64,000 nt of DNA from NCBI GenBank assembly GCA_001782235.1, contig MFOC01000007.1:86799-150798 (forward strand), in the 5' to 3' direction. Origin of the DNA: Candidatus Levybacteria bacterium RIFCSPHIGHO2_02_FULL_40_18 (GTDB lineage Bacteria > Patescibacteriota > Microgenomatia > Levybacterales > GWA1-39-11). The translations under genes were made by a program, and so were the position numbers. Below the pieces are notes generated by a model. That model did not search any database, was not told where the DNA came from, and worked only from the letters and a program-made list of their open reading frames with translations. Of the stretch, positions 10,000-48,854 are shown one piece after another. Position 1 is the first letter of the stretch, and every line of letters begins with the position of its first letter.

Positions 10000-10009
10000 A
10001 TTTAATAAG

Positions 10010-10135
10010 ATATTAGTTGTTAGAAATTAGAAAATGGTTATGGAAATTAGATGTTGGAAATTGGTTTTGGTTCAACTATTTTCCATTTCCCACTTTCTAT
10101 TACTATTTTCTATTCTCTAGTGGCTATTTTCCTAA
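10010..10135 (-). repeat. Word-repeat palindromic leader element, copy A, immediately 5' of ruvB
   Basis: TAGAAATTAG/GAAAATGG/GGAAATTAG words followed by CTATTTTC/CCATTTCC words. Its 3' part ATCTAATTTCCATAAC...TAATTTCTAACAACTAAT is nearly identical to the nrdR leader (copy G). Confidence 0.6.
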
Positions 10136-11931: not shown

Positions 11932-12002
11932 AATCGTATTACATTTTACATAATCGTAAAACAAAAGTCAACCCCAAAAATTATCATGCAGACTATTATC
12001 GC

Positions 12003-25845: not shown

Positions 25846-25880
25846 TACTAATTTCCATTTTCCAATAACTATTTTCTAGT

Positions 25881-31901: not shown

Positions 31902-32210
31902 CTATCTTGGGGCGAGCTGCCCTACGCCCGTGATTTGGGATATGGCGTTAAGGAAGAAAAATGAGAGAAAGATAAATATCAGACCAGCAAGCGCATAGAC
32001 TAAAGTTTTCCTAGCGCTTGATATCTTTTCAGGATCCCCTTCTGACATAACATATTTATATCCTGCATAAATTATCATAAAAACCGATACAATACCCGCA
32101 ATTACAATAAGGGCATTGATGATATTTTGAAGAACCACAGGGATACACGAAAGAGTTGCGACGCCCTCAGGGCTAACACAACTTCCCCAATCAGAAATAA
32201 TATCAAACAT
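31902..32210 (-). CDS. T4SS pilin-like protein (VirB2/TrbC-like, two TM helices), paralog 1
   Basis: TM...SEGDPEKISSARK...TM shares the loop motif [ST][SG]GD[KP][EQ]K...AR with three neighbouring genes. Confidence 0.6.
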   Translation of the reverse strand: MFDIISDWGSCVSPEGVATLSCIPVVLQNIINALIVIAGIVSVFMIIYAGYKYVMSEGDPEKISSARKTLVYALAGLIFIFLSFFFLNAISQITGVGQLAPR

Positions 32211-32260
32211 ATATATATTTTATAGATAACCTAATCTTAAAATCAATAAAGAAGGTTTTG

Positions 32261-32659
32261 TTATTTGAATTCAGGGAGGGTGAGGATCTTGAGATTTCTT
32301 AGGTCTCCAAGTCCAAGAGCCTGAAGCACAACATTTATAATGACAAAAGAAAGAGCTATTATAATAAGACCTATTACTGCGGCAATTATATGATTTCTTG
32401 CATCTGCAACTTTTTGTTTGTCTCCGCCTGATGTGATCCACTGAAATGCCCCAATGACTATAAAAAGAAGTGCCGCCAAAAAGGCTATAACTATTATAAA
32501 GGCAACCAAAAACCCTACCACTTGGCCAATGGTTGTTTCAGGAGGAATAACAGTTGCGCCCGCGGGAGTTTTGACTCCGGCATCTATCGCGGCAAAAGCA
32601 GGTGCGGCAAGTGAGGAATAAGAAATTAGAGCGAAGGCACCTGATAATATCTTTCTCAT
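32261..32659 (-). CDS. T4SS pilin-like protein with signal peptide, paralog 2
   Basis: Signal peptide ...LAAPAFAA, then TM-SGGDKQKVADAR-TM. Confidence 0.65.
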   Translation of the reverse strand: MRKILSGAFALISYSSLAAPAFAAIDAGVKTPAGATVIPPETTIGQVVGFLVAFIIVIAFLAALLFIVIGAFQWITSGGDKQKVADARNHIIAAVIGLIIIALSFVIINVVLQALGLGDLRNLKILTLPEFK

Positions 32660-32698
32660 AAATTAATTAGAGCATGTTTCAAACCCTTTGTCAATAGT

Positions 32699-33034
32699 CT
32701 ATGGATTAACAACTGTTTTAACACCAAACGCGCCTGCTACGAGATTTACAAAGACAAGCGCCAATGACATAACTATTAATCCAAATATCGCATAGATAAC
32801 TATTCTTCTTGCTTTATCCCATTTTTGCTTGTCCCCGGACGCTTGTAGCCAATAAAAACCCCCATAAACAATATAGAATAGAGAAAGAAAAATTCCAATA
32901 ATTAGCGCTAGTTGAATGAAAAAAGATGCAATATTGCCTATTGTAAATTGAGGTCCGGTAGGAATACCGGGAGGCGCCTCAATATCAACTTGGCCTCCGC
33001 CTGAACCCGGTACTTTTAATGATAAATATCTCAT
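32699..33034 (-). CDS. T4SS pilin-like protein, paralog 3
   Basis: TM-ASGDKQKWDKAR-TM. Confidence 0.65.
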   Translation of the reverse strand: MRYLSLKVPGSGGGQVDIEAPPGIPTGPQFTIGNIASFFIQLALIIGIFLSLFYIVYGGFYWLQASGDKQKWDKARRIVIYAIFGLIVMSLALVFVNLVAGAFGVKTVVNP

Positions 33035-33171
33035 ATTAGAAATTGGTTATTAATAATTAGAAAATAGTTCAGAAATTAGAAATTAGAAATTGGTTCTTGA
33101 TTTTTAACTATTTTCTATTCTCTATTTTCCATTACCATTTTCCATTCTCCTATAACTATTTTCTAATATAT
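33035..33171 (-). repeat. Word-repeat palindromic leader element, copy B, 5' of the pilin paralog-3 gene
   Basis: ATTAGAAATTGGTTATTAATAATTAGAAAATAGTT... then CTATTTTCTATTCTCTATTTTCCATTACCATTTTCC. It contains a 29-bp segment (33084-33112) that is a perfect inverted copy of 34648-34676. Confidence 0.6.
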
Positions 33172-34569
33172 TTAGCGGGTGATTCCTGGTATTTTCAAAA
33201 TATCAACTCCTATTATCTCAAGTATAACAATTGAGAAAATGATGAACAACAATCCTACGACTGCAGAAGTTATCGTTTCCCTTGCTCCTGCGATTTTCTC
33301 TTTATCCCCTCCTGACGTTATTAATATATAGCCTGAGTAGATTATTATTATGATTGCCCCAAATCCCGCAATTGTTAATATAAATCTAAAAATTGTCTCA
33401 ATGAATCCTTTTGGAGTGACATTAATTGGTCCGATTGCCGAATTTATGGTTTTACAGTCACCAGGGCGAAGATTAATATCACCTTCCCCACTTCCACAAG
33501 GCAGTATTGCACCGGGAGCAACCTTATTTAACGCCGCAAGGTCTTTAAGAAAGGTACGATACTCCTCGCCTTTGGGATCTTGTCTATAATGCAGGGGATC
33601 ATCACATGTTCCACCTTCCTTATTATTAGCTGATGTGATTATGCATGTTGCTTCATAATATGTAAATCCACCTTTACAACCAGGTGGGTTTGGAACTGAA
33701 GGAAATACGCTGACGCTTACCCAAGCCCATGCGGTTGGGTTATCATCATCAACCTGTTCTCTTACAGTTATTGTGTATTTTCCAGCGGAAAGTTTTTGAA
33801 ACTCAATTCTTTTTCCACTCTCATTCTCGCTCGTAAAGGCAAGACATCCTCCCTGTCGGTAACCATTGTTTCCAATCATCAAAATTTGGTAGTTATTCCT
33901 TCTCCACCCTCCAGGCCTGAACGAATTATTAATGGCATTGCCTAGATTTACGGTGATTGTTGCGCCAGGTCTCAAGTCTGTACCAGGATAGATTGATAGA
34001 GAAGGATAAGTTCTATGAACATAAAAACCTCCTATTTTAATTGGTTTGTAATAGGCATCTTTTATTAGGGTTCCGATACTCAGCGCATAGACATTCCCAC
34101 CATGAAAATAGACAGTGCCACCACAGTCAGTTTTGACCTTGCTACTTCCTGCTCCGCATACCCCCTTAACAGTTACATTGCCTTTGCTATCTGATTTTAG
34201 CCCTAAGATAAAATTGTCCAATATATCTGGGCCGTTTATCCCAGGTACAAATCCTTCTTCTCTAAGACATGCGCTGTCTCCCGTACAAATTATATAACCA
34301 GACTTATCACTCTCAAGTCCATAAAAAGTAATATCAATTATTTTATCTGCTTCATCAAGACATTCAGGTCGCTCGCTTGTTGAAAATTCAACGTCTGTTC
34401 CCTCAAGAATTGTCTCAGTGGGAGAAGGACTTGTCTGACATGGATCAAGCTGGGCAAAAGCAGGAGTTTTGAAAAGTAAAAATATCGCGGCGAAGAGGAA
34501 GGACGCGGTTAATATAAGAAGCTTCTTCATATATTTATGATAGGCAGAAGGAGTAGGGGAAGTCAACAT
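33172..34569 (-). CDS. Large pilin-domain protein: signal peptide, Cys-rich extracellular domain (about 380 aa), C-terminal pilin-like two-TM module
   Basis: C-terminus ...IIIIIYSGYILITSGGDKEKIAGARETITSAVVGLLFIIF matches the paralog motif. At least 14 Cys in the ectodomain. Confidence 0.6.
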   Translation of the reverse strand: MLTSPTPSAYHKYMKKLLILTASFLFAAIFLLFKTPAFAQLDPCQTSPSPTETILEGTDVEFSTSERPECLDEADKIIDITFYGLESDKSGYIICTGDSACLREEGFVPGINGPDILDNFILGLKSDSKGNVTVKGVCGAGSSKVKTDCGGTVYFHGGNVYALSIGTLIKDAYYKPIKIGGFYVHRTYPSLSIYPGTDLRPGATITVNLGNAINNSFRPGGWRRNNYQILMIGNNGYRQGGCLAFTSENESGKRIEFQKLSAGKYTITVREQVDDDNPTAWAWVSVSVFPSVPNPPGCKGGFTYYEATCIITSANNKEGGTCDDPLHYRQDPKGEEYRTFLKDLAALNKVAPGAILPCGSGEGDINLRPGDCKTINSAIGPINVTPKGFIETIFRFILTIAGFGAIIIIIYSGYILITSGGDKEKIAGARETITSAVVGLLFIIFSIVILEIIGVDILKIPGITR

Positions 34570-34723
34570 CCGCTAGAAATTAGTTATTAATAATTAGAAA
34601 ATAGTTGTTGGAAAATGGAAATTAGTAATGGAAAATAGAGAATAGAAAATAGTTAAAAATCAAGAACCAATTTCTAGTTTCTAATTTCCGAACCATTCTC
34701 TAATTTCCCATAACTACTTTCTG
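34570..34723 (-). repeat. Word-repeat palindromic leader element, copy C, 5' of the large pilin-domain gene
   Basis: GCTAGAAATTAGTTATTAATAATTAGAAAATAGTT... (30-mer near-identical to the start of copy B), then GGAAAATGG/GAAAATAG words, then CTAATTTC words. Confidence 0.6.
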
Positions 34724-36040
34724 CTACTCTGTGAGTTTGTAGCCGCGGCCTTTTATGGTTTGGATAGAATTAGGATTATTGGGATCATCTTCTATTTTCT
34801 TTCGTAAGCGATAAATTATTTGATCAAGGGCTTGGTCTGTTACACCTTCTTGAGTTTTAGTGTCTTTCCAGACATTTGAGATTATTTCGTCTTTTTCACA
34901 TACCCGCCCTTGGTTTTGAAGCAAAAATCTAAGTAGTCTAAACTCCTGCGGAGAAAGAATTTCGGTTAAGTTTTGATCTCCCTTGAGGATCTCATTGCGC
35001 TCCTGATCATAAGACAATCTTGGGGAGGTGGGGGTTAAAGTTTTTAGGTATGTGTCGAACAATGGAATAACGAGTTTGCCATCACGGGTTAGTCCTGCCT
35101 TTTCTAAAAATTCATTTTTATTATTTGCTTTTATATCCTTCTTTTCTTCCGGTGTCAGGAAATTCCATATCTCTGAAAGCGCGCTCCTAACCTGTGGTTT
35201 TAACAGTAAGACTTCGGATAATCGGCTGTTGGCTGTTGGCTGTTGGCTATTGGCCAGGGTAGCTTCATAACAAATTCGTGCGAGTTTTCCGTGGCCGCCG
35301 GTCAGTTTTATAATTTCACTTTTAATTCTTTCATCAGCCGACTTTCCCGAAATTTCTTCAAGATGCTTGAATCGAAATTCTAGTCCCACCTTATCATAAA
35401 GCGAAAGATATACTATGTTACCGATTAAAAACTCAGAGAATTCGGCATAAATAGAAGATTCTAAAACCTCCTCGATTGGACGCGTTATGCCAAAAACAGC
35501 AGTAAATCTATACTTTGCGCGGTTTCGAAGAATCTTTAAGTTAAGAAAAAAGGAAGAGTCAATATTTTGTACATATTCCTCAAAACGGTCCAGCAGAAAA
35601 ACAATATTTAATTCGCATTCATTTGCAAGATAGTCTATAGCTTTTTTTAAGTTTTGAGAAAAGACCATCTCATCGGAGAATTTAAGAGCGTCTGAGAGAA
35701 ATTTATTAACAACCGACTCTTCTTCTTTTAATCTTCTTTCGCCAAAAGAGGAAGCAATAGAGATTAAGATAAATTTTAATATGTCGGAAAGGGACCTTTT
35801 GGCTACTTCTGAGAAGTCCATATAAACAAAATGATAAGAAGATTCCCTTTTACCTAAGTGGAGCTCCCGGACCGTTCTATTATAAGGAAGTAAACGAAGC
35901 GCGTTGCTTTTCCCTGTGCCCGGTAGCCCAATTACCTGACAGGATTTGCCCGATGATACGAATTCGATAATTTTGGCGATCTCAGCCTTTCTTGTTTCTT
36001 TTGGGTATAGGCTCTCAAAATGAGAAGGCTCGATAATCAT
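34724..36040 (-). CDS. AAA+ ATPase fused to a C-terminal OmpR/PhoB-type winged-helix DNA-binding domain. Putative regulator of the locus.
   Basis: Walker A VIGLPGTGKSNAL, Walker B IVFLLDRFEE. C-terminal LSPQEFRLLRFLLQNQGRVCEKDEIISNVW...ALDQIIYRLRKKIEDDP...IQTIKGRGYKL (trans_reg_C). Confidence 0.7.
   Translation of the reverse strand: MIIEPSHFESLYPKETRKAEIAKIIEFVSSGKSCQVIGLPGTGKSNALRLLPYNRTVRELHLGKRESSYHFVYMDFSEVAKRSLSDILKFILISIASSFGERRLKEEESVVNKFLSDALKFSDEMVFSQNLKKAIDYLANECELNIVFLLDRFEEYVQNIDSSFFLNLKILRNRAKYRFTAVFGITRPIEEVLESSIYAEFSEFLIGNIVYLSLYDKVGLEFRFKHLEEISGKSADERIKSEIIKLTGGHGKLARICYEATLANSQQPTANSRLSEVLLLKPQVRSALSEIWNFLTPEEKKDIKANNKNEFLEKAGLTRDGKLVIPLFDTYLKTLTPTSPRLSYDQERNEILKGDQNLTEILSPQEFRLLRFLLQNQGRVCEKDEIISNVWKDTKTQEGVTDQALDQIIYRLRKKIEDDPNNPNSIQTIKGRGYKLTE
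35224..35251. repeat. Heptanucleotide tandem repeat (GGCTGTT)x3 plus GGCTATT inside the AAA+-wHTH coding sequence
   Basis: Read directly: GGCTGTTGGCTGTTGGCTGTTGGCTATT. Encodes ANSQQPTANS on the minus strand. Confidence 0.8.
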
Positions 36041-36103
36041 AGAAAATAGAAAATAGTTATTAGAAAATAGACAATGGTTCGGAAATTAGAAAATAGAAAT
36101 TGG
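36041..36103 (-). repeat. Word-repeat leader element, copy D, 5' of the AAA+-wHTH gene
   Basis: AGAAAATAGAAAATAGTTATTAGAAAATAGACAATGGTTCGGAAATTAGAAAATAGAAATTGG. Confidence 0.55.
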
Positions 36104-36532
36104 TTAACGATCATGGTAATTCTTCCAAGATTTCTTAAGATTCGTTAGTTGCTTACAGGAGATTATATATAAATTTATGACTTCGTTGCAAAGTTTAGGA
36201 TCGACGTATTTACTATAAACATCTATGCATACTGATAAATGATTTATCATTTCGTAACATTCACCTATCGTATCATCTATATATTTACTCCATGCTTTTT
36301 TCTGATATCTTTTGGCAAACCCCTCAGCAAGTATGGCTGGTCCTGCTTTGCAACTACGTCTCATTTGATCAACAAGATCAAACTTCTCTTCCTTCGGTAG
36401 ATTAGTAATTATTTCCTTCAATACTGTGACCATTGCCTTATATAAATTTTGGTACACCTCAAGATCTTGAAAAGTTCTGATTGGCTTTTTCTTTCTATTT
36501 TCCATTTTCAAATATCTATTACCATTTTCCAC
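36104..36532 (-). CDS. Four-helix-bundle protein (23S rRNA intervening-sequence protein family). The probable true start is near 36505, because the first codons are built from leader-repeat words.
   Basis: FQDLEVYQNLYKAMVTVLKEIITNLPKEEKFDLVDQMRRSCKAGPAILAEGFAKRYQKKAWSKYIDDTIGECYEM matches the family pattern. Confidence 0.65.
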   Translation of the reverse strand: MENGNRYLKMENRKKKPIRTFQDLEVYQNLYKAMVTVLKEIITNLPKEEKFDLVDQMRRSCKAGPAILAEGFAKRYQKKAWSKYIDDTIGECYEMINHLSVCIDVYSKYVDPKLCNEVINLYIISCKQLTNLKKSWKNYHDR

Positions 36533-36560
36533 TTTCCTACAACCATTTACAATTATCAGA
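36488..36560 (-). repeat. Word-repeat leader element, copy E (CTATTTTCCATTTTC... on the plus strand), overlapping the annotated 5' end of the four-helix-bundle gene
   Basis: TTCTATTTTCCATTTTCAAATATCTATTACCATTTTCCACTTTCC. Confidence 0.5.
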
Positions 36561-36627
36561 CTTCTGTTACGCTGCTGTTAGGTTAATATCAAGTATCCTA
36601 AGCTATATTCTTGTAAACTTGCGCCAT

Positions 36628-39600
36628 ATGACACACGAAAATTTGACACCAAGAGACGCTATCAACTATTCTATAAATAGAATGCCAGAACCCATAATAG
36701 ATGGCCTACGAGGCGGCTCTGCCTCAAGTCGTTCAGTTCCGGGATATGATTCTTCCAGAACCGTAGATGAAATACAGGCTCAAAGAATTGTTGATGAGGT
36801 CAAATCCAAATCTTATTCTGCTAAAAGCAAATGGAGCAAAGAACAGGTTGATAAAAATGCCGGGCTTTCTGATGAGGAACGTCTTAGTCAAGCAGCTAAA
36901 ATTTTAAATCGGGAGCTTTCTCAAGAACAAAAAGACGCAGTCATTGGAACACATAAAATTAGCGAAGGCGAGATGGGAAAAGATGATAAACCTGTCAAAA
37001 TAGGAGAATACACACAGGCTCAAATTAAAAGAAAAGCCAATTCATTGAAAAAAGCAGGGTTTAATCTTGAAGAAAGGCGTGCTTTGCTTGAAAGCGGCAT
37101 TGCCGGCCTTCCTCTGGAAAGATTCGCCGCTATTAATCCTGACACATATACAGATCCTGAGATTAAAAATAAAACGGGGTTTGTAAAAACTATGGGGACA
37201 GAAGGAAACGCTGATTCGGAATTCTTACAGAATCAACTCTTTGAACTCAACTCTAGAATCGATAGGGGAACTGGGGACCTCAGAGAAGCAAGAACATTTC
37301 GGGATCAAATACAAGATCTTTTGACAGAGGCTCGTAGGCAAGAAACTGCAGAATTAGAAGAGAGAAGGCGTGCCGCGGAGGCAAGGTCTCCTACAGAGAG
37401 AAGGGGAGGCTATGAGCATCTTGAACGAACAGAGGAACAATTAAGAGCTATGACTCCTGAGGAACGTCAGAATTGGAGGGATCAAATTAAGCAGGCAATC
37501 AGAGAAGCGCCAGCCATCGATGCCTCTCGCTTCCCTGAACAACTTTTAGTAATAGCATTGAGCGATAAGGAACTTCGTGAGATGCTTCTCAATAGAATTC
37601 TTTTTAAACCCTATGAAGATACAACTGAGGCAAATATGTATAGGCTTAACTTTTACGCTGAGGGGAATCGCGACGATATTCTTGGGAAATTAGCCGAAAT
37701 AACTGATGGGAAATATGATTATTTTAAAAAACTTCAGACCGCGGTAGAGTTATTTCATGCAATGAATGTATCAACTGTCTCAGGAGACATAGAGCATTTA
37801 CTTGACTATGCTCGGCGAATAAATTTTGAACATTTTTCCTTAATGCAAGAGCTTCCAGGTCTCCCAGATGTCATGAGGCTTTATGAAGAGAAATACCAGG
37901 AGATTTTAGCAAGAGAAGGTAGAATAGCAACAGAGGGTTACAAAACATTAAAAAAAGAAGTAGAGAGAGCCTTCAATGAGATGAATGAAAAAGGGATTGT
38001 CAGAAGCGAATATGAAACGGAAAGGACTGGTGACAGGCCATGGATAATGGAAGACTGGGAAAGAACTAGGGCTATTAATGCGGGAAGAGCATTTTTTAAT
38101 ATTACCATTCGCGCAGCAGAACATATAGCAAATGGACAACTTGAGTCTGGAGGTAGAAAATGGACAGGATTTCCTCAGGAAGACGCTGTAAGACTTATGA
38201 ACTGGCCAAAATGGCTCGTTGAGAGATTTGAGGTTGCTATCCCTCGTGGAGGGCGTGCGTTTCTTGACAGAACAAGTAGAAACTACTTTGAATTTCTTGT
38301 TGAGCGCAAGCGAAAACTGGGGATAAATAGAATAGCCCAGCTTGGAGGAATGAGGGTTGATGAGCTTGAACTTGGGGCAATGTTTGGCGTAAGCGGAGTT
38401 TATAGCTCCTGGAGACTTGAGGCAATGCTATTTCCAAAGATCAAACTTGCCAATGGCCAGACACTTAGAGACTGGCTTGATGAGGAAGTCGGATATATAT
38501 CGCCGGACGGCAAGACAATTATGGCAAGAGGGAAAGACAGGCAGAGTCACTGGGTTGATAAAGGTATCTCCTTGCAGAAGCGGGCTGACTGGTTAGACCA
38601 GATTCAAGGAGATATTAAAAGCCAAGACCAGTTGCTCAAGTTTTTATCTCCTGTCATAGAAAATACAGACATTGCACTTGGTGTATTACTTAAGCAAGGT
38701 CTTACCTCAGGAGAGGTAGGATATAAGGTGAGAGAGAGAATTTGGCAAAGAGTTGCTGAAACAAATCTGCCTCTGATGATAAATTATCTTTCAAGCATTA
38801 GTGAAATGGATGATCCAATAGAGGTTGGTATAGGAGAACCTTTAAAAGGCGCACCAAAAGCTCAAAATCGCATAAGGCCAGATGACTGGACGTGCGGCGA
38901 AGAAGGGAGCGAGGAACGAAAGGAGGGAGATAGGAAGTGGAATGAGTTTAAAGAAAATGTTTTACTGCATCATGCCTGGGAAGTTAAACGCGCGGCGGGA
39001 GCAAATGTGTCAGAGGAGTCGCCTGTCCGTGATTATATTCGTGATCACCAAGATTTGATAGATAAAATTAAGCAAGAGGGGAGAGCACTTGCACCGCAAC
39101 TTGCAGATATTGTTTTTCCTTACGTTCCTTTTATGAATGACGTGCCATTTGAACTTATCGATTATGCAGGCCCGGGAGAAACATTCTACAAGAGGAGATT
39201 AGGCTCTGACCTTCCGAGCTTTAGCGCTGCAGAGCGCGCGTTTACAACCATTGTTAATAATCCGGGTGGGATAGGAGCAGAGAATGCACTTAAGGCATTT
39301 GATGAGATTGTAAAAGGAATTGAGAGTCCACAAGGGACACCGGATGCGCAGGAAAGGGTCTATCCAATGCTTTCTGCCTGGGGAGAATTTGTCCTGGCGC
39401 GTCCCGGGCATAGACAGATGATAATAAAGGCAGTTACAGAGATACTAAGAAAACCCACTTCCATTGCTCAGGAGTTTGCAGGAATGGATGCGGAATCTCT
39501 CGATGAAAATCAAATGCTGGCTGTTTTAGGAAATGCTACGAAAGCTGGAATTATAAGCCATGACCTTTACAATGAGATGAAGAAAAAAAAGCATCTGGGC

Positions 39601-39702
39601 ATTCTTTTTATCTTGTGGGCGCTTTTCCGTGATATTATTATAATGGCTCCGGCAATCGCAGCTTGGGAGATGGGTAAAGATACGATGAAGAAAGCGGCAT
39701 GA
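36628..39702 (+). CDS. Large (about 1020 aa) hypothetical protein with a C-terminal TM anchor, on the opposite strand inside the T4SS-like locus. Start chosen at ATG 36628.
   Basis: Long ORF; C-terminal HLGILFILWALFRDIIIMAPAIAAW hydrophobic helix. R/E-rich with no recognised domain. Confidence 0.55.
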   Translation: MTHENLTPRDAINYSINRMPEPIIDGLRGGSASSRSVPGYDSSRTVDEIQAQRIVDEVKSKSYSAKSKWSKEQVDKNAGLSDEERLSQAAKILNRELSQEQKDAVIGTHKISEGEMGKDDKPVKIGEYTQAQIKRKANSLKKAGFNLEERRALLESGIAGLPLERFAAINPDTYTDPEIKNKTGFVKTMGTEGNADSEFLQNQLFELNSRIDRGTGDLREARTFRDQIQDLLTEARRQETAELEERRRAAEARSPTERRGGYEHLERTEEQLRAMTPEERQNWRDQIKQAIREAPAIDASRFPEQLLVIALSDKELREMLLNRILFKPYEDTTEANMYRLNFYAEGNRDDILGKLAEITDGKYDYFKKLQTAVELFHAMNVSTVSGDIEHLLDYARRINFEHFSLMQELPGLPDVMRLYEEKYQEILAREGRIATEGYKTLKKEVERAFNEMNEKGIVRSEYETERTGDRPWIMEDWERTRAINAGRAFFNITIRAAEHIANGQLESGGRKWTGFPQEDAVRLMNWPKWLVERFEVAIPRGGRAFLDRTSRNYFEFLVERKRKLGINRIAQLGGMRVDELELGAMFGVSGVYSSWRLEAMLFPKIKLANGQTLRDWLDEEVGYISPDGKTIMARGKDRQSHWVDKGISLQKRADWLDQIQGDIKSQDQLLKFLSPVIENTDIALGVLLKQGLTSGEVGYKVRERIWQRVAETNLPLMINYLSSISEMDDPIEVGIGEPLKGAPKAQNRIRPDDWTCGEEGSEERKEGDRKWNEFKENVLLHHAWEVKRAAGANVSEESPVRDYIRDHQDLIDKIKQEGRALAPQLADIVFPYVPFMNDVPFELIDYAGPGETFYKRRLGSDLPSFSAAERAFTTIVNNPGGIGAENALKAFDEIVKGIESPQGTPDAQERVYPMLSAWGEFVLARPGHRQMIIKAVTEILRKPTSIAQEFAGMDAESLDENQMLAVLGNATKAGIISHDLYNEMKKKKHLGILFILWALFRDIIIMAPAIAAWEMGKDTMKKAA

Positions 39703-39721
39703 AGCTTTTCTTGCTGTTCTT

Positions 39722-41335
39722 TTATCTAAAGACCCGTCTGAGAACAGCAGTAAGCCCTTTCTCACCCGCCAGTGGCATAGCGCCTTTTAGAGCTGCAAAA
39801 CCACCTCCAGCAGTTCCCCTAACAGTTCCTGTTATGACACCCAGTCCTCCTGCAACCGATCTTCCTATTGCTGCGGTGTACTTAAATTCGGGCGCTTTTA
39901 GAGCGTCCCTGACAATATTGACAACTTCAGGGGTCAAGAGAATTATTCCAAGACCAATTATTGACGCAAAGTTTGCTGGATCCAAAAAGTCTCCGGTAAG
40001 TGGTGGAACAAAAGGCGTTGTGCTTGGATCTTGTTTAGTAAAGCCACTCATAAAAGCCTTTCCAAAAAGAAACATGGCAATTGTTACCGGAAATACCGAG
40101 AGGTTTGATAATATTGATCTTATCCACGTTCCAAAACCAGATCTTCCCGGGATTAGCCCCGAGGCAATATAAAAGGGGGCAAGGACTACATTTATGAGGA
40201 CGTAGATATAGGATTTAATAAGTTGAAACCAAAGACGCAGGAGCGCTGCAAAAATTGCGATTATTATAATAAGGTACGTAACTGCACCTGCAAAAAATCC
40301 CAGAATTCTATTTCCAGACAGTTCATTCACCCCAAAACCTATTGCAAAACCTGCTACCGCCCCAGGGATCCCTCCGAAACTGCCAGCAGCCTTAGCTACT
40401 TTACCTAGCACTGAAGGTAGTCCACCTCCTGCGCCGCCCAACACGGTTCCAAAGATTCCGCCGACAATTCCTGCTAAAACATTCCCAAGAGTACCATCAA
40501 ATATAGATCGCACAATCCCTGAGATACTTTTAGCAACGCCTTCTGCAATTCCAGATATCCCCATGTCCTTTCCGGTGAGCGGGGCGCTGCCAAATCCTCC
40601 GGCTGCCGCAAAGGGGTTACTTGCCAACATACTTGTTGGGTCAATTCCTTGCTCGGCGAATATTGTCATAATTAAGTAGATTGAGACATACATAAGGTCC
40701 ACTAAAAACCCTGCGATTGCATAAGAGAAGGTAATCAAAACTAGAGCAATCACAATTTTTGGAATTTGATTTTGCATTGTCATAACGGTTCTGGGGTCAA
40801 TTTTTATTCTAAACATTATTCCAAGACCCACAATTATAAAAACAATTACAAAGAGAAGATAAGTCAAATTTCTAAAAGCCTGCCAGAGCTTAAGAGTGGG
40901 CGTAAGGGAATTAAAACCTAGGCTTCCCTCAGGTCCTTGCGCATATGTTTTTTTAACTATGCCAAAATTTGAAGCAACATAGCTTCCGTAATCATGAGTT
41001 GAGACAGGAATGTAAAAAGTTGCCGACATAAGATTTCCCAACATTCCAAGCGCTCCGCCTCCTCCCTCAACAAATCCTATTTTTCCAGTATTTGGATCTA
41101 TTCCAAGACACTTATTACCAGGATTGGCGGGATCAATTCCTGAGAGTTGACAAGAAGTTGCGGCGATAATTTCAATAAAGACGCTTTGGGTGTATGTATG
41201 GAAATTCTGCGGGACGTCCGGATTTGTGTTGAGGTAATTTGCATTAGGGTTTGGGAATTGAGCATTCGCGTTTGGTACAAAAATAAGGAACAATGAATAA
41301 AGAATAACGAATAAAGAGAGCAGTTTAAATATCAT
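39722..41335 (-). CDS. VirB6/TrbL-like polytopic inner-membrane T4SS component, with signal peptide and Gly-rich segments
   Basis: Signal peptide ...VPNANAQ, at least 7 TM helices, Gly-rich loops GGIFGTVLGGAGGGLPSVLG. Position and size typical of TcpH/PrgH/VirB6 analogues. Confidence 0.55.
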   Translation of the reverse strand: MIFKLLSLFVILYSLFLIFVPNANAQFPNPNANYLNTNPDVPQNFHTYTQSVFIEIIAATSCQLSGIDPANPGNKCLGIDPNTGKIGFVEGGGGALGMLGNLMSATFYIPVSTHDYGSYVASNFGIVKKTYAQGPEGSLGFNSLTPTLKLWQAFRNLTYLLFVIVFIIVGLGIMFRIKIDPRTVMTMQNQIPKIVIALVLITFSYAIAGFLVDLMYVSIYLIMTIFAEQGIDPTSMLASNPFAAAGGFGSAPLTGKDMGISGIAEGVAKSISGIVRSIFDGTLGNVLAGIVGGIFGTVLGGAGGGLPSVLGKVAKAAGSFGGIPGAVAGFAIGFGVNELSGNRILGFFAGAVTYLIIIIAIFAALLRLWFQLIKSYIYVLINVVLAPFYIASGLIPGRSGFGTWIRSILSNLSVFPVTIAMFLFGKAFMSGFTKQDPSTTPFVPPLTGDFLDPANFASIIGLGIILLTPEVVNIVRDALKAPEFKYTAAIGRSVAGGLGVITGTVRGTAGGGFAALKGAMPLAGEKGLTAVLRRVFR

Positions 41336-41344
41336 AATTGATTT

Positions 41345-41480
41345 TAGTATTTAGAAATTGGTTTTTGGACAATAGAAATTAGTAATAGAAAATAGAGAAT
41401 AGAAAATAGAAACAAATACTATTCTCCAAGTTCAAATTTCCATAACCATTTTCCAATTTCTTACAACTATTTTCTAATAA
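41345..41480 (-). repeat. Word-repeat palindromic leader element, copy F, 5' of the VirB6-like gene
   Basis: TAGAAATTGGTTTTTGGACAATAGAAATTAGTAATAGAAAATAGAGAATAGAAAATAG ... CCATAACCATTTTCCAATTTCTTACAACTATTTTCTAAT. Confidence 0.6.
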
Positions 41481-41719
41481 GTCTATTTTTAGTATGGGCT
41501 AAAAATATCGTAAATGTCAAATAGTTGGCTTGACCCCGCTAATCTTACCGTTCGCCTTTTTCCCGCCGATATTTTTCGGTCGGGATCCCGCACGAATGTA
41601 ATTCGTCGGGACAGTACTATTCGTACACGGCTCACGGAGCGATTTTAGAGGTGTCTTCTGTCGCTACGCTTCTTGACAATTGGTGTGGTTGGGGTTATTA
41701 TTATCAAAATCTTCATTAA

Positions 41720-42334
41720 ATGAAAAAAGTTGTCTTGGGATTACTGCTCCTGGCCCTCTTTTATTTAAGTACTCCTTCAAAAACACTTGCCCAAACTAAG
41801 CCTATACTTTCTCCTTCGCCCACGGAAGCCCTCATGTCAGAAGATAAACAAATGGAGAAAGAAAAAGAAGCCACGCAAAGTTCGCAGCCTGAGATAGATG
41901 AGTACCCGTTGCCCTATCCTGGAATCTTACCTGACAATCCGTTGCATTTTCTAAAGGCTCTCCGAGACAGGATAATTTTAATGCTAATGTCAGATCCTGT
42001 AAAAGAAGCGGAGTTTAATCTTTTAACATCGGACAAAAGAATTTATGCGGCACAACTTTTAGCAGACAAGGGAAAAGGACAACTTTCAATTTCAACTCTT
42101 TCAAAAAGCAATAACTATTTCCATAATGCAGTATCAAGCGCCGGGGAAGCCAAAAAGATGGGGAAAGATATTGATACAGTTTTACATAATATGAAAAAGT
42201 CTATTGTTAAACACCAACTGGTGCTGCCTATGATGGAGAATGTGCTCTCAAAAGACTTTGCAAGCCAGCTTCGGGCAGAGGGTGCGAGAATGGTAGAATT
42301 TGAAAGATCCGTAGATAGCCTTATCCTGCAGTAA
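41720..42334 (+). CDS. Secreted hypothetical protein (signal peptide)
   Basis: MKKVVLGLLLLALFYLSTPSKTLAQ signal peptide. The sequence TTGACA-17 nt-TATTAT at 41676-41704 upstream is a possible promoter. Confidence 0.5.
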   Translation: MKKVVLGLLLLALFYLSTPSKTLAQTKPILSPSPTEALMSEDKQMEKEKEATQSSQPEIDEYPLPYPGILPDNPLHFLKALRDRIILMLMSDPVKEAEFNLLTSDKRIYAAQLLADKGKGQLSISTLSKSNNYFHNAVSSAGEAKKMGKDIDTVLHNMKKSIVKHQLVLPMMENVLSKDFASQLRAEGARMVEFERSVDSLILQ

Positions 42335-42482
42335 CAATCTAATTCCCTAGTTAGATCATTTTTTTTACACACAAAAACAAAGTGCCCAACTAATTTTTTC
42401 GTCCCATCCGCCAACCGGCGGACTATTACCGCAAAACGAGGCTAAAACATCGATTGCCATAGTTTGATATACAACTTGATAG

Positions 42483-42537
42483 TTGACACGGCTGATATAG
42501 TGTTCTACTATTTTAGTTGACACTATATCTAGTAGTT
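42483..42537 (+). promoter_or_regulatory. Putative nrdR/nrdJ promoter with two NrdR-box-like palindromes. TTGACA at 42483-42488, TACTAT at 42506-42511. Boxes at about 42494-42507 and 42520-42533.
   Basis: TGATATAGTGTTCT and ACACTATATCTAGT resemble the NrdR box consensus acaCwAtATaTwGtgt. Centre-to-centre spacing is about 27 bp. Confidence 0.45.
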
Positions 42538-42564
42538 TGCACCTTGAACAACCAGCCCAATTAA

Positions 42565-42690
42565 GCAGAAAATAGTTAATAGATAATAGAAAATAGTAAT
42601 GGAAGTTGGAAAATAGAAAATAGATTAAATACCAATTTCTAATATCTAATTTCCATAACTAATATCTAATTTCTAACAACTAATTTCTGT
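42565..42690 (+). repeat. Word-repeat palindromic leader element, copy G, 5' of nrdR
   Basis: CAGAAAATAGTTAATAGATAATAGAAAATAGTAATGGAAGTTGGAAAATAGAAAATAG ... ATCTAATTTCCATAACTAATATCTAATTTCTAACAACTAATTTCTG. Confidence 0.6.
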
Positions 42691-42706
42691 AATTTAGAAT
42701 TTAATT

Positions 42707-45673: not shown

Positions 45674-45856
45674 GTTAGCAATTAGCAATTAGTTTCAAAT
45701 AAGAGTATATATTTGGTAATCGCCGTGAAAGTCGGCGGAACTGCCGGTACTGTAATATCCAGAAAACAATATATACTTTCATCCCCGAGCAGGGTTAAGC
45801 GAAGAAGAATTCCTCTCGGGTTATCGAGAGGTTTTTTTGTGAGCAATAGTTGAACT
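45674..45856 (+). promoter_or_regulatory. Structured 5' leader upstream of the adenosyltransferase gene: hairpin CGCCGUGAAAGUCGGCG (45721-45737), then an intrinsic terminator immediately before the start codon
   Basis: Terminator stem CCUCUCG-GGUUAU-CGAGAGG followed by UUUUUUU. Architecture typical of a riboswitch or attenuator; class not identified. Confidence 0.4.
45812..45839 (+). terminator. Rho-independent terminator (7-bp GC-rich stem plus T7) about 18 nt upstream of the adenosyltransferase start codon
   Basis: cctctcgggttatcgagaggttttttt read directly. Confidence 0.6.
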
Positions 45857-47471: not shown

Positions 47472-48141
47472 TATTCTTTTTCCTAAGAAATGTATAAATT
47501 GTAAAAAATTTGGGGATTTTTTGTGTGCGGACTGTTTTGCCAAGATTAAATACAATGAATCATTTGAGCCAGTTTCAGGCGAATTAGATGGTGTGATATC
47601 GGCAGTTATTTATAATTCGATAATTCGAAAGTTAATCCGCCAATTCAAGTATAAACCGTACGTCTCAAAGCTTGCAGAAATAATTTCCGAGATTATGAAT
47701 GAGGGACTAGCACAAAATGAAGCTTTTTATAATTTCATCGAACAATTCGAGTCGGTTATTATCCCGATTCCATTAAGCCCAAGGCGCCTGCGCGAGCGCG
47801 GGTATAATCATGCGGAAATCCTAGCATCTTTTGTCGCAAAGTATTTCGATTTAAAAATAGAGCCTAAGATTTTAGTTCGCATTAAAGAAACAAAACCTCA
47901 GTTTAGATTAAATAAAGAGGAACGGAAGAAAAACGTCGAAGATGCGTTCTCGGTTCGCAAAGATCCTAAAACCCCCCTTCTGGGCCAGAGGCCCACCGGT
48001 CCGGCGGCAAACATCCCTAAAGCCGTAGTAATCATAGACGATCTTGCAACAAGTCTTGCGACTCTCAAAGAAGCCGCAAAAGTATTAAAAAGCGCAGGGG
48101 CAAAAAAAGTCCTCGGTGTCACCTTCGCGAGAGAGGTTTAA
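47457..48141 (+). CDS. ComF-family protein (phosphoribosyltransferase-like competence protein)
   Basis: N-terminal zinc finger CINCKKFGDFLCADC; C-terminal PRTase motif VVIIDDLATSLATL. Confidence 0.7.
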
Positions 48142-48461
48142 AGCATCGATAATGTCCTTTTTAAAGCTTCTTTAAATTGTCTTCTTCCAAAGCCGCTTTT
48201 GAGAAATTCTTCGCGGGCTTTAGCATCCTCTTCATTTATAAAATATTCGTAATAAATGAGCTTTACAGGTAGCCTGAATTTTGTAGCTTTAATTTCTCCT
48301 CTTGCATGTTTTGTTAATCTATTCTTTAGACTTGTCGTAAAGCCAATATATAAACCTTTATCTTTAAGGCTATGGAGGATATATACGTAGTATCTTTTTG
48401 AAACGTCAAACGTTTCTGACATAAAAATATATCTTTTGAGTGTCGCGTCCAACGCGATCAC
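48138..48461 (-). CDS. GIY-YIG nuclease family protein (UPF0213-like). The probable start is the internal Met near 48422.
   Basis: YYVYILHSLKDKGLYIGFTTSLKNRLTKH is the GIY-YIG signature. Confidence 0.7.
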   Translation of the reverse strand: MIALDATLKRYIFMSETFDVSKRYYVYILHSLKDKGLYIGFTTSLKNRLTKHARGEIKATKFRLPVKLIYYEYFINEEDAKAREEFLKSGFGRRQFKEALKRTLSML

Positions 48462-48499
48462 CTTACAAACGCTGCTTCGTGCGAAGCCGCGTTTGACGC

Positions 48500-48854
48500 G
48501 GTGGAGATGGGGGGCTTTGAGCCCCCGTCCAAAAAAGCATCTATAAAAACATCTACAAGCTTATTCAATTATTTATTGTCATCATGCAAACTCCAATTGA
48601 AAGGATTGAACATGACTAAGATTTAAATTGTTCGAACAAAATCTAAATCGGAACTTTGTCTATATCCAAACTTTGTTTATGCCCATATCTGATCGTTTGG
48701 AAAAATCTAGATATGAACACCAGTTTAAGCTACTGCGTAGCTGTAGGCCGGACTAACATTTCTGTTAGCATTTATTTTTGATACATTTTTACGATTAGTA
48801 TCATTATCGGCTTGCAGTTTTTAAAGAGCAATTCTGTCGATGCAATGCATCCCC
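48500..48854 (-). ncRNA. ssrA: tmRNA (ssrA), about 355 nt, CCA not fully encoded
   Basis: Acceptor stem GGGGAUG pairs with CAUCUCC. tRNA-like T-arm GGGGG-CUCAAAG-CCCCC at the 3' end. Internal tag ORF GCU AAC AGA AAU GUU AGU CCG GCC UAC AGC UAC GCA GUA GCU UAA gives ANRNVSPAYSYAVA then stop. Located immediately downstream of smpB. Confidence 0.65.

What the first reader, a model, noticed from the sequence alone, without database searches (positions are those of the whole stretch)
31902..34723. Tandem array of four pilin-domain paralogs, one fused to a 380-aa Cys-rich ectodomain and bracketed by a perfect 29-bp inverted repeat
Four consecutive genes share the two-TM module with loop motif [ST][SG]GD[KP][EQ]K..A[RK] (SEGDPEKISSARK, SGGDKQKVADAR, ASGDKQKWDKAR, TSGGDKEKIAGARE). 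The fourth (33172-34569) carries this module at the C-terminus of a secreted Cys-rich domain, making it a candidate pilus tip or adhesin subunit. Its flanking leaders contain TAGAAATTGGTTCTTGATTTTTAACTATT at 33084-33112 and the exact reverse complement at 34648-34676. The gene therefore sits between 29-bp perfect inverted repeats about 1.5 kb apart, a geometry that permits DNA inversion. Inversion here would swap the upstream regions of adjacent pilin genes. That offers a shufflon-like or promoter-flip mechanism for switching which pilin or adhesin is expressed.
Basis: partly seen in the sequence, partly recalled or inferred. Interest (0 to 1): 0.7.

Follow-up and report, generated by a model that had tools for sequence, protein, structure and literature searches.

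The report
Pilin operon flanked by dispersed hairpin repeats
The four genes are a conserved secretion-system pilin operon of a Candidatus Levybacteria genome, and the "perfect inverted repeat" around one gene is two oppositely oriented copies of a roughly 135-base hairpin repeat scattered across this genome, with no sign that it is a DNA-inversion switch.

Summary
Four minus-strand genes carry the VirB2-like T4SS_pilin module, and the fourth fuses it to a secreted ectodomain predicted as two beta-sandwich domains. A perfect 29-bp inverted repeat brackets that gene, and it is the core of a 130-nt, 88% inverted repeat.

The inversion-switch reading is not supported.
- Each arm is a whole intergenic region and a copy of a roughly 135-nt palindromic element built from degenerate 7-nt repeats.
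- At least five full copies and one half copy lie in the window, including ruvA/ruvB and upstream of nrdR.
- A seventh copy has a four-helix-bundle (23S-rRNA-IVS-protein) gene in its loop.
- No recombinase domain is annotated anywhere in the 64 kb.
- Three assemblies of the strain are identical and colinear.
- About 17 other Levybacteria genomes keep regulator, fusion pilin and three pilins on one strand; in the three relatives whose junctions I read, the spacers lack this hairpin.
- The fusion gene's own conserved promoter lies inside the would-be invertible segment, so a flip would not uncouple it.

The interesting by-product: four-helix-bundle genes in CPR bacteria and in three of four cyanobacterial plasmids examined sit inside long stems of inverted heptamer arrays, like rRNA intervening sequences. 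The hairpins here look like ORF-less derivatives.

The parts
31902..32210 (-). pil1, a VirB2-like T4SS pilin of 102 aa
   Evidence: It hits PF18895 at E 1.7e-10 and TrbC weakly. Orthologues at 42-78% identity hold the same position in relatives.
32261..32659 (-). pil2, a T4SS pilin of 132 aa with a signal peptide
   Evidence: It hits PF18895 at E 4.4e-9. Orthologues at 40-83% identity are syntenic.
32660..32698 (-). pil3-pil2 spacer holding a TTGACA-N17-TCTAAT promoter 6 nt before the pil2 ATG; this is an 'empty' site
   Evidence: The sequence is shown. The same promoter is conserved in L009, where a copy of the hairpin element is inserted just upstream of it.
32699..33034 (-). pil3, a T4SS pilin of 111 aa
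   Evidence: It hits PF18895 at E 5.3e-8. Orthologues at 37-72% identity are syntenic.
33035..33171 (.). Hairpin element copy e33 in orientation class 1; it fills the whole stop-to-ATG spacer between the fusion gene and pil3 and contains the 29-bp core 33084-33112
   Evidence: It folds at -30.5 to -31 kcal/mol with z -4.5 to -5.0. It is a family member in alignment A2. In L008 and L011 the same junction is only 3 and 1 nt long.
33172..34530 (-). Fusion pilin of 452 aa from the corrected start: signal peptide, two beta-sandwich domains, 12 Cys, and a C-terminal T4SS_pilin helical hairpin
   Evidence: It hits PF18895 at 24.7 bits. About 50 full-length homologues exist at 28-46% identity. The AlphaFold2 model has pLDDT 81.5. 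Foldseek finds tandem FN3-like folds at E about 1e-6 with low TM-scores.
34537..34566 (-). The fusion gene's own promoter, TTGACT-N18-TATCAT, 6 nt before ATG 34530
   Evidence: Found in the promoter scan. The same box is conserved in L008, L009, L011, L012 and L014.
34570..34723 (.). Hairpin element copy e34 in orientation class 2 (34607-34723), plus a 33-nt partial arm (34574-34606) that directly repeats 33037-33069; it contains the core 34648-34676
   Evidence: It folds at -39 kcal/mol with z -5.75. It matches e33 in inverted orientation at 118/133 positions. The direct repeat is family D1. In relatives this junction is 34-53 nt.
34724..36040 (-). Regulator with an AAA/STAND-like N-terminus and an OmpR-type winged helix; a conserved upstream partner of the pilin genes
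   Evidence: It hits PF00486 at E 9.5e-23. It is syntenic in the relatives whose loci extend that far.
36041..36560 (-). Four-helix-bundle (23S_rRNA_IVP) gene cassette: the gene at 36104-36505/36532 lies in the loop of a long stem formed by arms 36484-36560 and 36041-36103, which belong to the same repeat family
   Evidence: The gene hits PF05635 at E 3e-15 and TIGR02436 at 48.5 bits. The arms are 79-89% identical to the ORF-less copies. The whole-cassette MFE pairs the two arms, at -121.8 kcal/mol with z -3.8.
10000..10123 (.). Hairpin element copy between ruvA and ruvB
   Evidence: with gene names.
25846..25880 (.). Half copy of the element between the PrgI-like and TraC-like genes
41336..41490 (.). 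Hairpin element copy abutting the start of the 537-aa gene
42556..42706 (.). Hairpin element copy directly upstream of nrdR
   Evidence: (z -6.8 to -7.5), with gene names.

Best explanation
**The genes (shown).** Positions 31902-34569 hold the conserved VirB2-like pilin gene set of the Patescibacterial, monoderm-type type IV secretion system in a Candidatus Levybacteria chromosome. It has three short pilins plus one pilin fused to a secreted ectodomain predicted as two beta-sandwich domains, and it sits near virB4, a T4 coupling protein and dnaA. The four genes are old, one-to-one conserved orthologues with fixed order and strand.

**The repeat (shown).** The inverted repeat around the fusion gene is two oppositely oriented sister copies of a dispersed hairpin-forming intergenic element of about 135 nt. 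Its two arms are degenerate arrays of 7-nt units: TAGAAAA, TGGAAAA and TAGAAAT on one arm, and their complement on the other.

**Origin of the element (inferred from comparison).**
- The same arms enclose a four-helix-bundle (23S-rRNA-IVS-protein) gene 1.3 kb away.
- Close homologues of that gene in other CPR classes carry the same type of arms in unrelated genomic contexts.
- So the ORF-less hairpins are best read as miniature, MITE-like derivatives of an IVS-like gene cassette. They have inserted between stop codons and the next gene's promoter or start codon.

**Mechanism (inferred, not shown).**
- The copies act, if at all, at the RNA level as long AU-rich stem-loops between transcription units of a genome that seems to use mostly leaderless mRNAs.
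- Possible roles are RNase III processing sites, 3'-end protectors or insulators.
- Because e33 and e34 are inverted copies, a read-through transcript could also pair them with each other into a duplex of about 130 bp at -155 kcal/mol, with the fusion-gene mRNA in the loop. That is the same topology as the four-helix-bundle cassette.

They are not sites of a programmed DNA inversion.
For: **Pilin genes**
- All four proteins hit the pilin family.
- The locus context includes VirB4, TraC-like, PrgI-like and T4CP genes, and dnaA/dnaN.
- Pilin arrays near virB4 and dnaA are already described for Patescibacteria (PMC12102498).
- Synteny and strand are conserved in about 17 other genomes.
- The fusion architecture is conserved in about 50 homologues.
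- The structure model is confident, with pLDDT 81.5.

**Repeat family**
- k-mer mapping places the motifs at 10.0, 25.8, 33.0, 34.6, 36.0/36.5, 41.4 and 42.6 kb.
- Every copy folds as a long hairpin, with z from -2.7 to -7.5.
- Autocorrelation at lag 7 is 0.44-0.67 against about 0.3 at other lags.
- Full-length copies are 80-89% identical and fall into two orientation classes. The e33/e34 pair is the closest and shares a loop that the other copies lack.
- A copy in another species (L009) is 86-87% identical, although the orthologous proteins are only 37-83% identical.

**Insertion polymorphism**
- The fusion-pil3 junction is 137 nt here, but 3 nt in L008 and 1 nt in L011.
- The regulator-fusion junction is 154 nt here, but 34-53 nt in relatives.
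- The pil3-pil2 junction is empty here and filled in L009.

**Against a switch**
- No recombinase domain is annotated in the window.
- Three assemblies are identical and colinear.
- The fusion gene's promoter lies inside the repeat-bounded segment.

**Cassette link**
- The arms of 36041-36560 belong to the same family and pair across the gene.
- Six further Microgenomates cassettes have 356-394-nt loops that encode four-helix-bundle proteins.
- Homologues at 68-71% identity lie in unrelated contexts with the same arm type, while a different protein subfamily carries CTAGCGT-type arms.
- Three of four cyanobacterial plasmid genes examined have purine-rich and complementary pyrimidine-rich flanks.
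- The IVS precedent is a stem enclosing an S23p ORF that RNase III cleaves in the stem (PMC4990558).
- 23S_rRNA_IVP ORFs and short ORF-less insertions occur in CPR rRNA genes (PMC11270868).

**Inter-element pairing**
- The e34-e33 RNA duplex is -155.5 kcal/mol, against -39 and -31 for the two self-folds.
Against: - No transcript, RNase III or mobility data exist for this organism, so the RNA-level role is inference.
- Covariation in the stem is weak: only 2 of 41 pairs change on both sides, among six sequences. The conserved pairing could therefore simply reflect sequence conservation.
- Orientation relative to transcription is not uniform. Three co-directional copies and the cassette read B arm first, and e34 reads the other way.
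- No target-site duplication was seen, and the four-helix-bundle protein is not a known transposase, so a mobility mechanism is missing.
- The hairpins lack a following U-tract, so they are not classical intrinsic terminators.
- Read-level data for an inverted isoform could not be examined.
Confidence: 0.8

Rival explanations
1. This is a programmed, recombinase-driven inversion of 33113-34647, shufflon-like or a promoter flip, that switches which pilin or adhesin is expressed.
For: - A long, partly perfect inverted repeat brackets a surface-protein gene.
- Pilin and adhesin genes are classic targets of phase variation (general knowledge).
- The e33/e34 pair is the most similar in the family and shares a loop, as expected if the two copies exchange sequence.
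Against: - The repeat is a dispersed element present at housekeeping loci.
- No recombinase domain is annotated in 64 kb.
- Three assemblies are identical and colinear.
- About 17 related genomes show no inversion, and the three relatives examined lack a bracketing repeat.
- The segment carries a complete gene with its own promoter, so a flip changes neither the coding sequence nor the promoter linkage.
Confidence: 0.04
2. Occasional, unprogrammed homologous recombination between the two inverted copies flips the fusion gene in a minority of cells or strains. The effect is mild: pil3 loses read-through transcription, and the fusion gene becomes convergent with the regulator.
For: - The repeat offers 130 nt at 88% identity with a 29-bp perfect core. 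By general knowledge of RecA minimal processing segments, that is near the shortest homology RecA uses.
- ruvABC is present in the window.
- The shared loop hints at gene conversion between the copies.
Against: - No isoform is seen in any assembly, nor across species.
- The homology is short and mismatched.
- Assemblies report only the majority arrangement, so this is weakly tested.
Confidence: 0.1
3. The heptamer arrays are binding sites for the four-helix-bundle protein, a relative of the nucleic-acid-binding DGR protein Avd. The hairpins would then form a regulon-like network that controls transcription or translation of neighbouring genes, including the pilin genes.
For: - Protein subfamily and arm heptamer type travel together across distant genomes.
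- The arms overlap the four-helix-bundle start codon and abut the start codons or promoters of downstream genes.
- There is a weak NCBIfam hit to Avd.
- Heptamer repeats next to start codons have been proposed as translational regulators in Beggiatoaceae and cyanobacteria (PMC4679880).
Against: - No binding data exist.
- Co-travel is equally explained by simple inheritance of a cassette.
- Arm sequences differ within one protein clade at moderate divergence.
Confidence: 0.15

Closest known systems
VirB2-like pilin arrays of the Patescibacteria T4SS (PMC12102498, 2025)
   Same: Tandem PF18895/PF04956 pilin genes lie near virB4 and close to dnaA, and the paralogues share low identity. That paper reports 441 arrays of 2-11 genes, especially in Microgenomatia. 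This locus fits that description.
   Different: In the passages I read, the paper does not describe a member fused to a beta-sandwich ectodomain, and it does not mention the flanking hairpin repeats. Here the four genes are fixed orthologues across species rather than recent amplifications.
23S rRNA intervening sequences carrying an S23p / four-helix-bundle ORF (Coxiella, Leptospira; PMC4990558)
   Same: Terminal complementary sequences form a long stem that encloses a PF05635 ORF. IVS elements are sporadically distributed and thought to be transferred horizontally, and ORF-less short versions exist in rRNA genes. The cassette at 36041-36560 has this topology.
   Different: The elements here lie between protein-coding genes, not in 23S rRNA helices 9, 25 or 45. 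The arms are about 60-75 nt of degenerate heptamer arrays rather than a 28-bp stem. RNase III cleavage is untested.
MITEs and REP/BIME intergenic palindromes (general knowledge)
   Same: They are short, ORF-less, multi-copy, hairpin-forming and intergenic, with presence or absence differing between relatives. REPs can stabilise upstream mRNA.
   Different: No transposase, RAYT or target-site duplication was found. The whole element is one AT-rich palindrome of heptamer repeats, and the putative parent carries a four-helix-bundle gene rather than a transposase.
R64 shufflon and invertible promoter switches such as fimS and hin (general knowledge)
   Same: Inverted repeats flank DNA next to a pilus or adhesin gene.
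   Different: Those systems need a dedicated tyrosine or serine recombinase and locus-specific sites. They either exchange C-terminal coding segments or flip a promoter. None of these features is present here.
Intergenic heptamer direct repeats (TAACTGA and others) of Beggiatoaceae, cyanobacteria and Bacteroidetes (PMC4679880)
   Same: Arrays of 7-nt units lie in intergenic regions, close to start codons that lack Shine-Dalgarno sequences.
   Different: Those are described as direct arrays with no hairpin partner and no link to four-helix-bundle genes. Here the arrays come as inverted pairs.

Membership tests
Shufflon / invertible DNA switch | A dedicated site-specific recombinase is encoded nearby. 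| tested here: not met
   No integrase, resolvase, invertase or transposase Pfam hit appears on any called gene across the whole window. Several unannotated proteins remain, but they are syntenic in relatives that lack the repeat.
Shufflon / invertible DNA switch | The inverted repeats are specific to the switch locus. | tested here: not met
   The same element occurs at ruvA/ruvB, at nrdR, next to the DUF5667 gene and around the four-helix-bundle gene.
Shufflon / invertible DNA switch | Both orientations are observed. | tested here: inconclusive
   Only one orientation appears in three assemblies and in about 17 related genomes. Raw reads were not available, and the metagenome collection does not hold this organism.
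Shufflon / invertible DNA switch | The invertible segment carries a promoter, or alternative coding ends, whose orientation changes expression. | tested here: not met
   The segment carries the complete fusion gene together with its own conserved promoter, and the repeats are wholly intergenic.
T4SS pilin (VirB2/TrbC-like, PF18895) | The sequence matches the family model. | tested here: met
   Three genes score above the gathering cut-off. The fusion scores 24.7 against 26.6 bits, and many of its homologues carry precomputed PF18895 hits.
T4SS pilin (VirB2/TrbC-like, PF18895) | Two hydrophobic helices form a hairpin with a short polar loop, preceded by a signal sequence. | tested here: met
   The AF2 model has helices 386-418 and 423-458 and an N-terminal helix 8-32. 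The loop motif is conserved.
T4SS pilin (VirB2/TrbC-like, PF18895) | The genes lie in a T4SS gene neighbourhood. | tested here: met
   VirB4, TraC-like, PrgI-like and a T4 coupling protein are in the window.
T4SS pilin (VirB2/TrbC-like, PF18895) | The protein assembles into a pilus. | not testable with these tools
   This needs microscopy or biochemistry.
23S rRNA IVS element | Terminal complementary sequences form a stem that encloses a PF05635 ORF. | tested here: met
   This holds for 36041-36560. The ORF-less copies keep only the stem.
23S rRNA IVS element | The element is inserted in a 23S rRNA helix. | tested here: not met
   All copies lie between protein-coding genes, and Rfam finds no rRNA in the window.
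23S rRNA IVS element | RNase III excises the element. | not testable with these tools
   This needs RACE or in vitro cleavage.
MITE | Multiple ORF-less copies with terminal inverted repeats, present at some sites and absent at the same sites in relatives. | tested here: met
   There are five full copies at 80-89% identity. Three junctions are filled in one genome and empty in another.
MITE | Target-site duplication and a cognate transposase-encoding parent. | tested here: not met
   No duplication is visible at the junctions. The related ORF-carrying copy encodes a four-helix-bundle protein, not a known transposase.
REP/BIME | A short (20-40 nt) GC-rich palindrome associated with a RAYT transposase. 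| tested here: not met
   The elements are about 135 nt and AT-rich, and no Y1 transposase is in the window.

The most novel reading that the evidence does not exclude
Four-helix-bundle (23S-rRNA-IVS-protein, TIGR02436) genes are the cargo of a widespread, previously unrecognised class of cassette. The gene sits in the loop of a long stem made of inverted heptamer arrays. The cassette moves between intergenic sites, and between genomes of CPR bacteria and perhaps cyanobacteria. It spawns ORF-less miniature hairpins that land between stop codons and the next promoter or start codon. There the hairpins shape mRNA processing or expression, and here they bracket an adhesin-like pilin gene. The protein may recognise its own arrays.
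Probability: 0.3. Interest if true: 0.7.

Novelty: new variant of a known kind. Interest (0 to 1): 0.4.

Why it matters
For the finding as written, the result is a caution. A long "perfect" inverted repeat around a surface-protein gene is not evidence of phase variation when the repeat is a genome-wide palindromic element. The pilin operon itself is an ordinary, conserved member of the Patescibacterial T4SS pilin arrays already in the literature. The conserved fusion to a predicted double beta-sandwich ectodomain is still a concrete candidate for the host-contact subunit.

What could matter more is the repeat. rRNA intervening sequences and their four-helix-bundle ORFs have lacked a function or a mobility mechanism since the early 1990s. 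The same stem-plus-ORF topology now appears between ordinary genes, with ORF-less derivatives, and with protein type and arm sequence travelling together across phyla. That gives a tractable comparative and biochemical handle on the old question.

Tried and rejected
- **Metagenome scans.** Two scans, one with a 35-nt anchor at the pil3 start and one with the 29-bp core, gave no hits. That collection does not hold this organism, so the planned look for inverted-isoform contigs failed.
- **Viral contigs.** A scan with a degenerate arm consensus gave no hits.
- **Rfam.** Nothing matched at gathering thresholds, and only chance-level hits (E 0.17-0.4) fell on the hairpin region.
- **Promoter and terminator scan.** Counts were not above the shuffled controls (20 against 16 +/- 4.4 promoters; 2 against 3.9 terminators). 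I used it only where comparative conservation backed a site. The hairpins are not classical intrinsic terminators.
- **Covariation.** Six copies gave only 2 compensatory pairs, so this test was not decisive.
- **Self-BLAST for palindromes.** It missed the short-loop hairpins because the arms are too imperfect, although it did recover six cassettes with roughly 370-nt loops.
- **PDB sequence search.** The fusion-family profile found nothing meaningful.
- **Composite transposon idea.** I considered that the two copies had moved the fusion gene as a composite transposon. I rejected it because the gene is syntenic in all relatives.
- **Independent slippage idea.** I considered that the heptamer arrays arose independently by slippage. 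I rejected it because the copies align over their full length at 80-89% identity.

Full report
**1. The observation**

The 29-mer TAGAAATTGGTTCTTGATTTTTAACTATT is at 33084-33112, and its exact reverse complement is at 34648-34676. With up to three mismatches there is no other copy in the window, and none of 100 shuffles produced one. It is the centre of a much longer inverted repeat, 33038-33167 against 34593-34722, 130 nt at 88%.

The four minus-strand ORFs at 31902-32210, 32261-32659, 32699-33034 and 33172-34569 all match Pfam PF18895 (T4SS_pilin). The first also matches TrbC/VirB2 weakly. The fourth scores 24.7 bits against a 26.6-bit cut-off, and many of its full-length homologues carry the precomputed domain. 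These are VirB2-type secretion-system pilins, not type IV pilins.

**2. The genes and their setting**

The window is a chromosomal stretch of a CPR bacterium. The same strain is in GCA_001782635.1, GCA_001782715.1 and an ENA assembly. Homologues are named Candidatus Levybacteria.

The window carries these genes:
- dnaA/dnaN, ruvCAB and nrdR plus ribonucleotide reductase;
- tmRNA;
- a monoderm-type T4SS gene set: VirB4, TraC-like, PrgI-like and a coupling protein.

Tandem VirB2-like pilin arrays near virB4 and dnaA, especially in Microgenomatia, were described in 2025 (PMC12102498).

In about 17 other Levybacteria genomes, the order regulator, fusion pilin, pil3, pil2, pil1 is kept on a single strand. 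Each gene finds its own orthologue: pil3 at 37-72% identity, pil2 at 40-83% and pil1 at 42-78%. The four genes are therefore old, distinct subunits and not a recently amplified or shuffled family.

The fusion protein has about 50 full-length homologues at 28-46% identity. They share conserved cysteines and the motifs RNNYQ and CxGGFTY, and the C-terminal pilin module is far more conserved than the rest. An AlphaFold2 model has mean pLDDT 81.5. It shows an N-terminal signal helix, two beta-sandwich domains and a C-terminal helical hairpin. Foldseek finds tandem FN3-like folds at E about 1e-6 but with low TM-scores. A pilus-associated adhesin role is plausible but untested.

**3. A corrected start and a promoter**

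This genome has almost no Shine-Dalgarno motifs. About a third of the 48 genes I checked have a TATAAT-like box ending 7-13 nt before the ATG, which suggests largely leaderless mRNAs.

The first 39 nt of the long fusion ORF contain TTGACT-N18-TATCAT followed by 6 nt and ATG 34530 (MKKLL...). The same box precedes the fusion gene in L008, L009, L011, L012 and L014, where the -35 box overlaps the regulator's stop codon. Homologues also start at the MKK position.

The fusion gene therefore most likely starts at 34530 and has its own promoter at 34566-34537. That promoter lies inside the segment bounded by the repeat cores.

**4. What the repeat arms are**

Each arm is an entire intergenic region, and each folds on its own into a long imperfect hairpin. 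Energies are -30 to -39 kcal/mol and z-scores are -4.5 to -5.8.

The same sequence motifs recur at 10000-10123 (ruvA/ruvB), 25846-25880 (a half copy), 36041-36103 with 36484-36560, 41336-41490, and 42556-42706 (upstream of nrdR). The arms are degenerate arrays of 7-nt units, with lag-7 autocorrelation of 0.44-0.67.

The copies align over their full length at 80-89% identity, giving a consensus of about 135 nt. They fall into two orientation classes: e10k and e33 in one, and e34, e41 and e42 in the other. That is why e33 and e34 form an inverted repeat while e41 and e42 form a direct one. e33 and e34 are the closest pair (118/133) and share a loop sequence that the others lack, so they are sister copies.

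A perfect 29-nt run is not unusual inside a 130-nt alignment at 88% identity (my estimate, P about 0.4).

A copy in another species (L009 8622-8819) is 86-87% identical to the window copies, although the orthologous proteins are only 37-83% identical.

**5. The hairpins are insertions**

The junctions compare as follows:

| Junction | This window | Relatives |
|---|---|---|
| fusion-pil3 | 137 nt | 3 nt (L008), 1 nt (L011); 116 nt in L009, a hairpin of a different sequence family |
| regulator-fusion | 154 nt | 34-53 nt |
| pil3-pil2 | 39 nt, just a conserved promoter | in L009 the same promoter is preceded by a copy of the element |

No inverted repeat brackets the fusion gene in the three relatives examined.

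**6. Test of the inversion-switch idea**

- The repeat is not locus-specific (section 4).
- No recombinase or transposase domain is annotated on any called gene of the 64 kb.
- Three assemblies are 100% identical and colinear over 6 kb around the locus.
- None of about 17 related genomes has the gene flipped.
- The would-be invertible segment carries the whole gene with its promoter (section 3). A flip would neither exchange coding ends nor separate gene from promoter. At most it would remove read-through into pil3.

I could not examine reads, and the metagenome collection searched here lacks the organism. Rare RecA-type inversion between the 130-nt copies therefore remains possible, but nothing points to a programmed switch.

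**7. Where the hairpins come from**

At 36041-36560, arms of the same family flank a four-helix-bundle gene (PF05635 23S_rRNA_IVP; TIGR02436). The arms are 79-89% identical to the ORF-less copies. The predicted fold of the whole 531-nt RNA pairs the two arms across the gene, at -121.8 kcal/mol with z -3.8.

That is the topology of the Coxiella and Leptospira 23S rRNA intervening sequences, where a stem encloses an S23p ORF and RNase III cuts in the stem (PMC4990558). 23S_rRNA_IVP ORFs and short ORF-less insertions are also reported in CPR rRNA genes (PMC11270868).

In the other loci fetched here the pattern repeats:
- Four-helix-bundle genes are common: about 21 further loci had tblastn matches.
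- Most of the 14 I examined have a purine-rich array of roughly 7-nt repeats over the start codon and the complementary array after the stop. The repeat unit differs from one cassette to another.
- Six more were found purely as inverted repeats with 356-394-nt loops, and every loop encodes such a protein.

The window's protein has 545 homologues at E below 1e-10, and most of the 120 best are 65-75% identical, spread across CPR lineages. Three of these (68-71% identical) lie in unrelated contexts, yet carry the same TAGAAAA/TGGAAAA-type arms:
- inside another pilin array (L096);
- between a PfkB kinase and a 2-hydroxyacid dehydrogenase gene, in an assembly whose protein is named Candidatus Saccharimonadales (L097);
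- between a glycosyltransferase and a carbamoyltransferase gene (L099).

A different protein subfamily carries CTAGCGT-type arms. Three of four cyanobacterial plasmid genes examined have GGGAGCA- or GGGAAAA-type arrays upstream and the complement downstream.

Protein and arms therefore behave as one cassette, and the ORF-less hairpins in this window look like its miniature derivatives. Five of the seven copies lie within 10 kb around the ORF-carrying copy.

Only six papers in the searchable library mention this protein family at all. None of those I opened describes the flanking arrays, but I did not read them all. I mark this as apparently undescribed, not as proven new.

**8. How it most likely works**

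Shown:
- a dispersed, hairpin-forming, heptamer-based repeat family;
- insertion polymorphism between species;
- a shared family with the arms of a four-helix-bundle cassette;
- no sign of programmed inversion.

Inferred:
- The copies act, if at all, as RNA stem-loops between transcription units, as RNase III sites, 3'-end protectors or insulators.
- They lack a U-tract, so they are not classical terminators.
- Because e33 and e34 are inverted copies, a transcript reading through from the regulator could pair them with each other. That duplex is -155.5 kcal/mol, against -39 and -31 for the self-folds. It would place the fusion mRNA in a giant loop, as in the cassette.

Open:
- what moves the elements (no transposase, no target duplication);
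- whether the four-helix-bundle protein binds the arrays;
- why stem covariation is so weak.

**9. Verdict**

The pilin operon is a conserved member of a known kind. The inverted repeat is real but is a by-product of a dispersed palindromic repeat, and the inversion-switch interpretation is not supported. The repeat family, and its link to IVS-type four-helix-bundle cassettes outside rRNA genes, is the part worth following up.

Noticed in passing
window 36041-36560; L023 8613-9055; L044 6283-6777; L045 2911-3378; L048 2169-2636; L073 6333-6818; L084 3240-3680; L092, L093, L095: Four-helix-bundle (PF05635/TIGR02436) genes generally sit between a 5' purine-rich array of roughly 7-nt repeats and a 3' complementary array. 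This holds in CPR genomes and in three of four cyanobacterial plasmids examined. The repeat unit differs between cassettes, and protein subfamily and arm type travel together.
   Followed up: partly
whole window (48 gene starts): The genome shows almost no Shine-Dalgarno motifs. About a third of the genes have a TATAAT-like box ending 7-13 nt before the ATG, which suggests mostly leaderless mRNAs.
   Followed up: partly
window 34531-34569 and 36481-36639: The longest ORFs over-extend two genes. The fusion pilin most likely starts at 34530, because its promoter lies in the first 39 nt of the ORF. The 1073-aa ORF starts inside the right arm of the four-helix-bundle cassette, whereas public gene calls give 1006-1024 aa.
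   Followed up: yes
L009 8167-8282: In a related Levybacteria genome, the fusion-pil3 junction holds a 116-nt hairpin of a different sequence family (GGTTAAAGGGTATGGGT...ACCCAAACTTAAACC). It resembles the arms around the four-helix-bundle gene in L026. The same junction was therefore hit independently by another hairpin family.
   Followed up: no
window 33037-33069 and 34574-34606: A 33-nt direct repeat, identical at 32 of 33 positions, sits just before the pil3 ATG and just upstream of the -35 box of the fusion gene. It is the outer arm of e33 and an extra partial arm at e34. Its meaning is unknown: it could be the remnant of a nested insertion or an AT-rich upstream element.
   Followed up: no
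window 33035-42706: Five of the seven element copies cluster within about 10 kb around the ORF-carrying copy. e41 and e42 flank the DUF5667 gene (41720-42334) as direct repeats.
   Followed up: no
L096 665-1033 and 2501-2905: In another Microgenomates genome, two four-helix-bundle cassettes of different subfamilies are inserted within and just after a T4SS pilin array.
   Followed up: no
window 45704-45777 and 48499-48854: An AdoCbl-II riboswitch lies between the ribonucleotide reductase gene and a Cob_adeno_trans gene. A tmRNA gene lies next to smpB and a small GIY-YIG gene (48138-48461).
   Followed up: no
L002 17616-18688 versus L001 17616-18689: The PrgI-like gene is intact (357 aa) in the ENA assembly and in GCA_001782715.1, but split into 217 + 140 aa in GCA_001782635.1. 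The locus differs by one base in length, so this is a frameshift or an assembly error in an otherwise identical locus.
   Followed up: no
window 11250-11964: A MazE-like antitoxin and a PIN-domain toxin pair lie directly upstream of ruvC.
   Followed up: no
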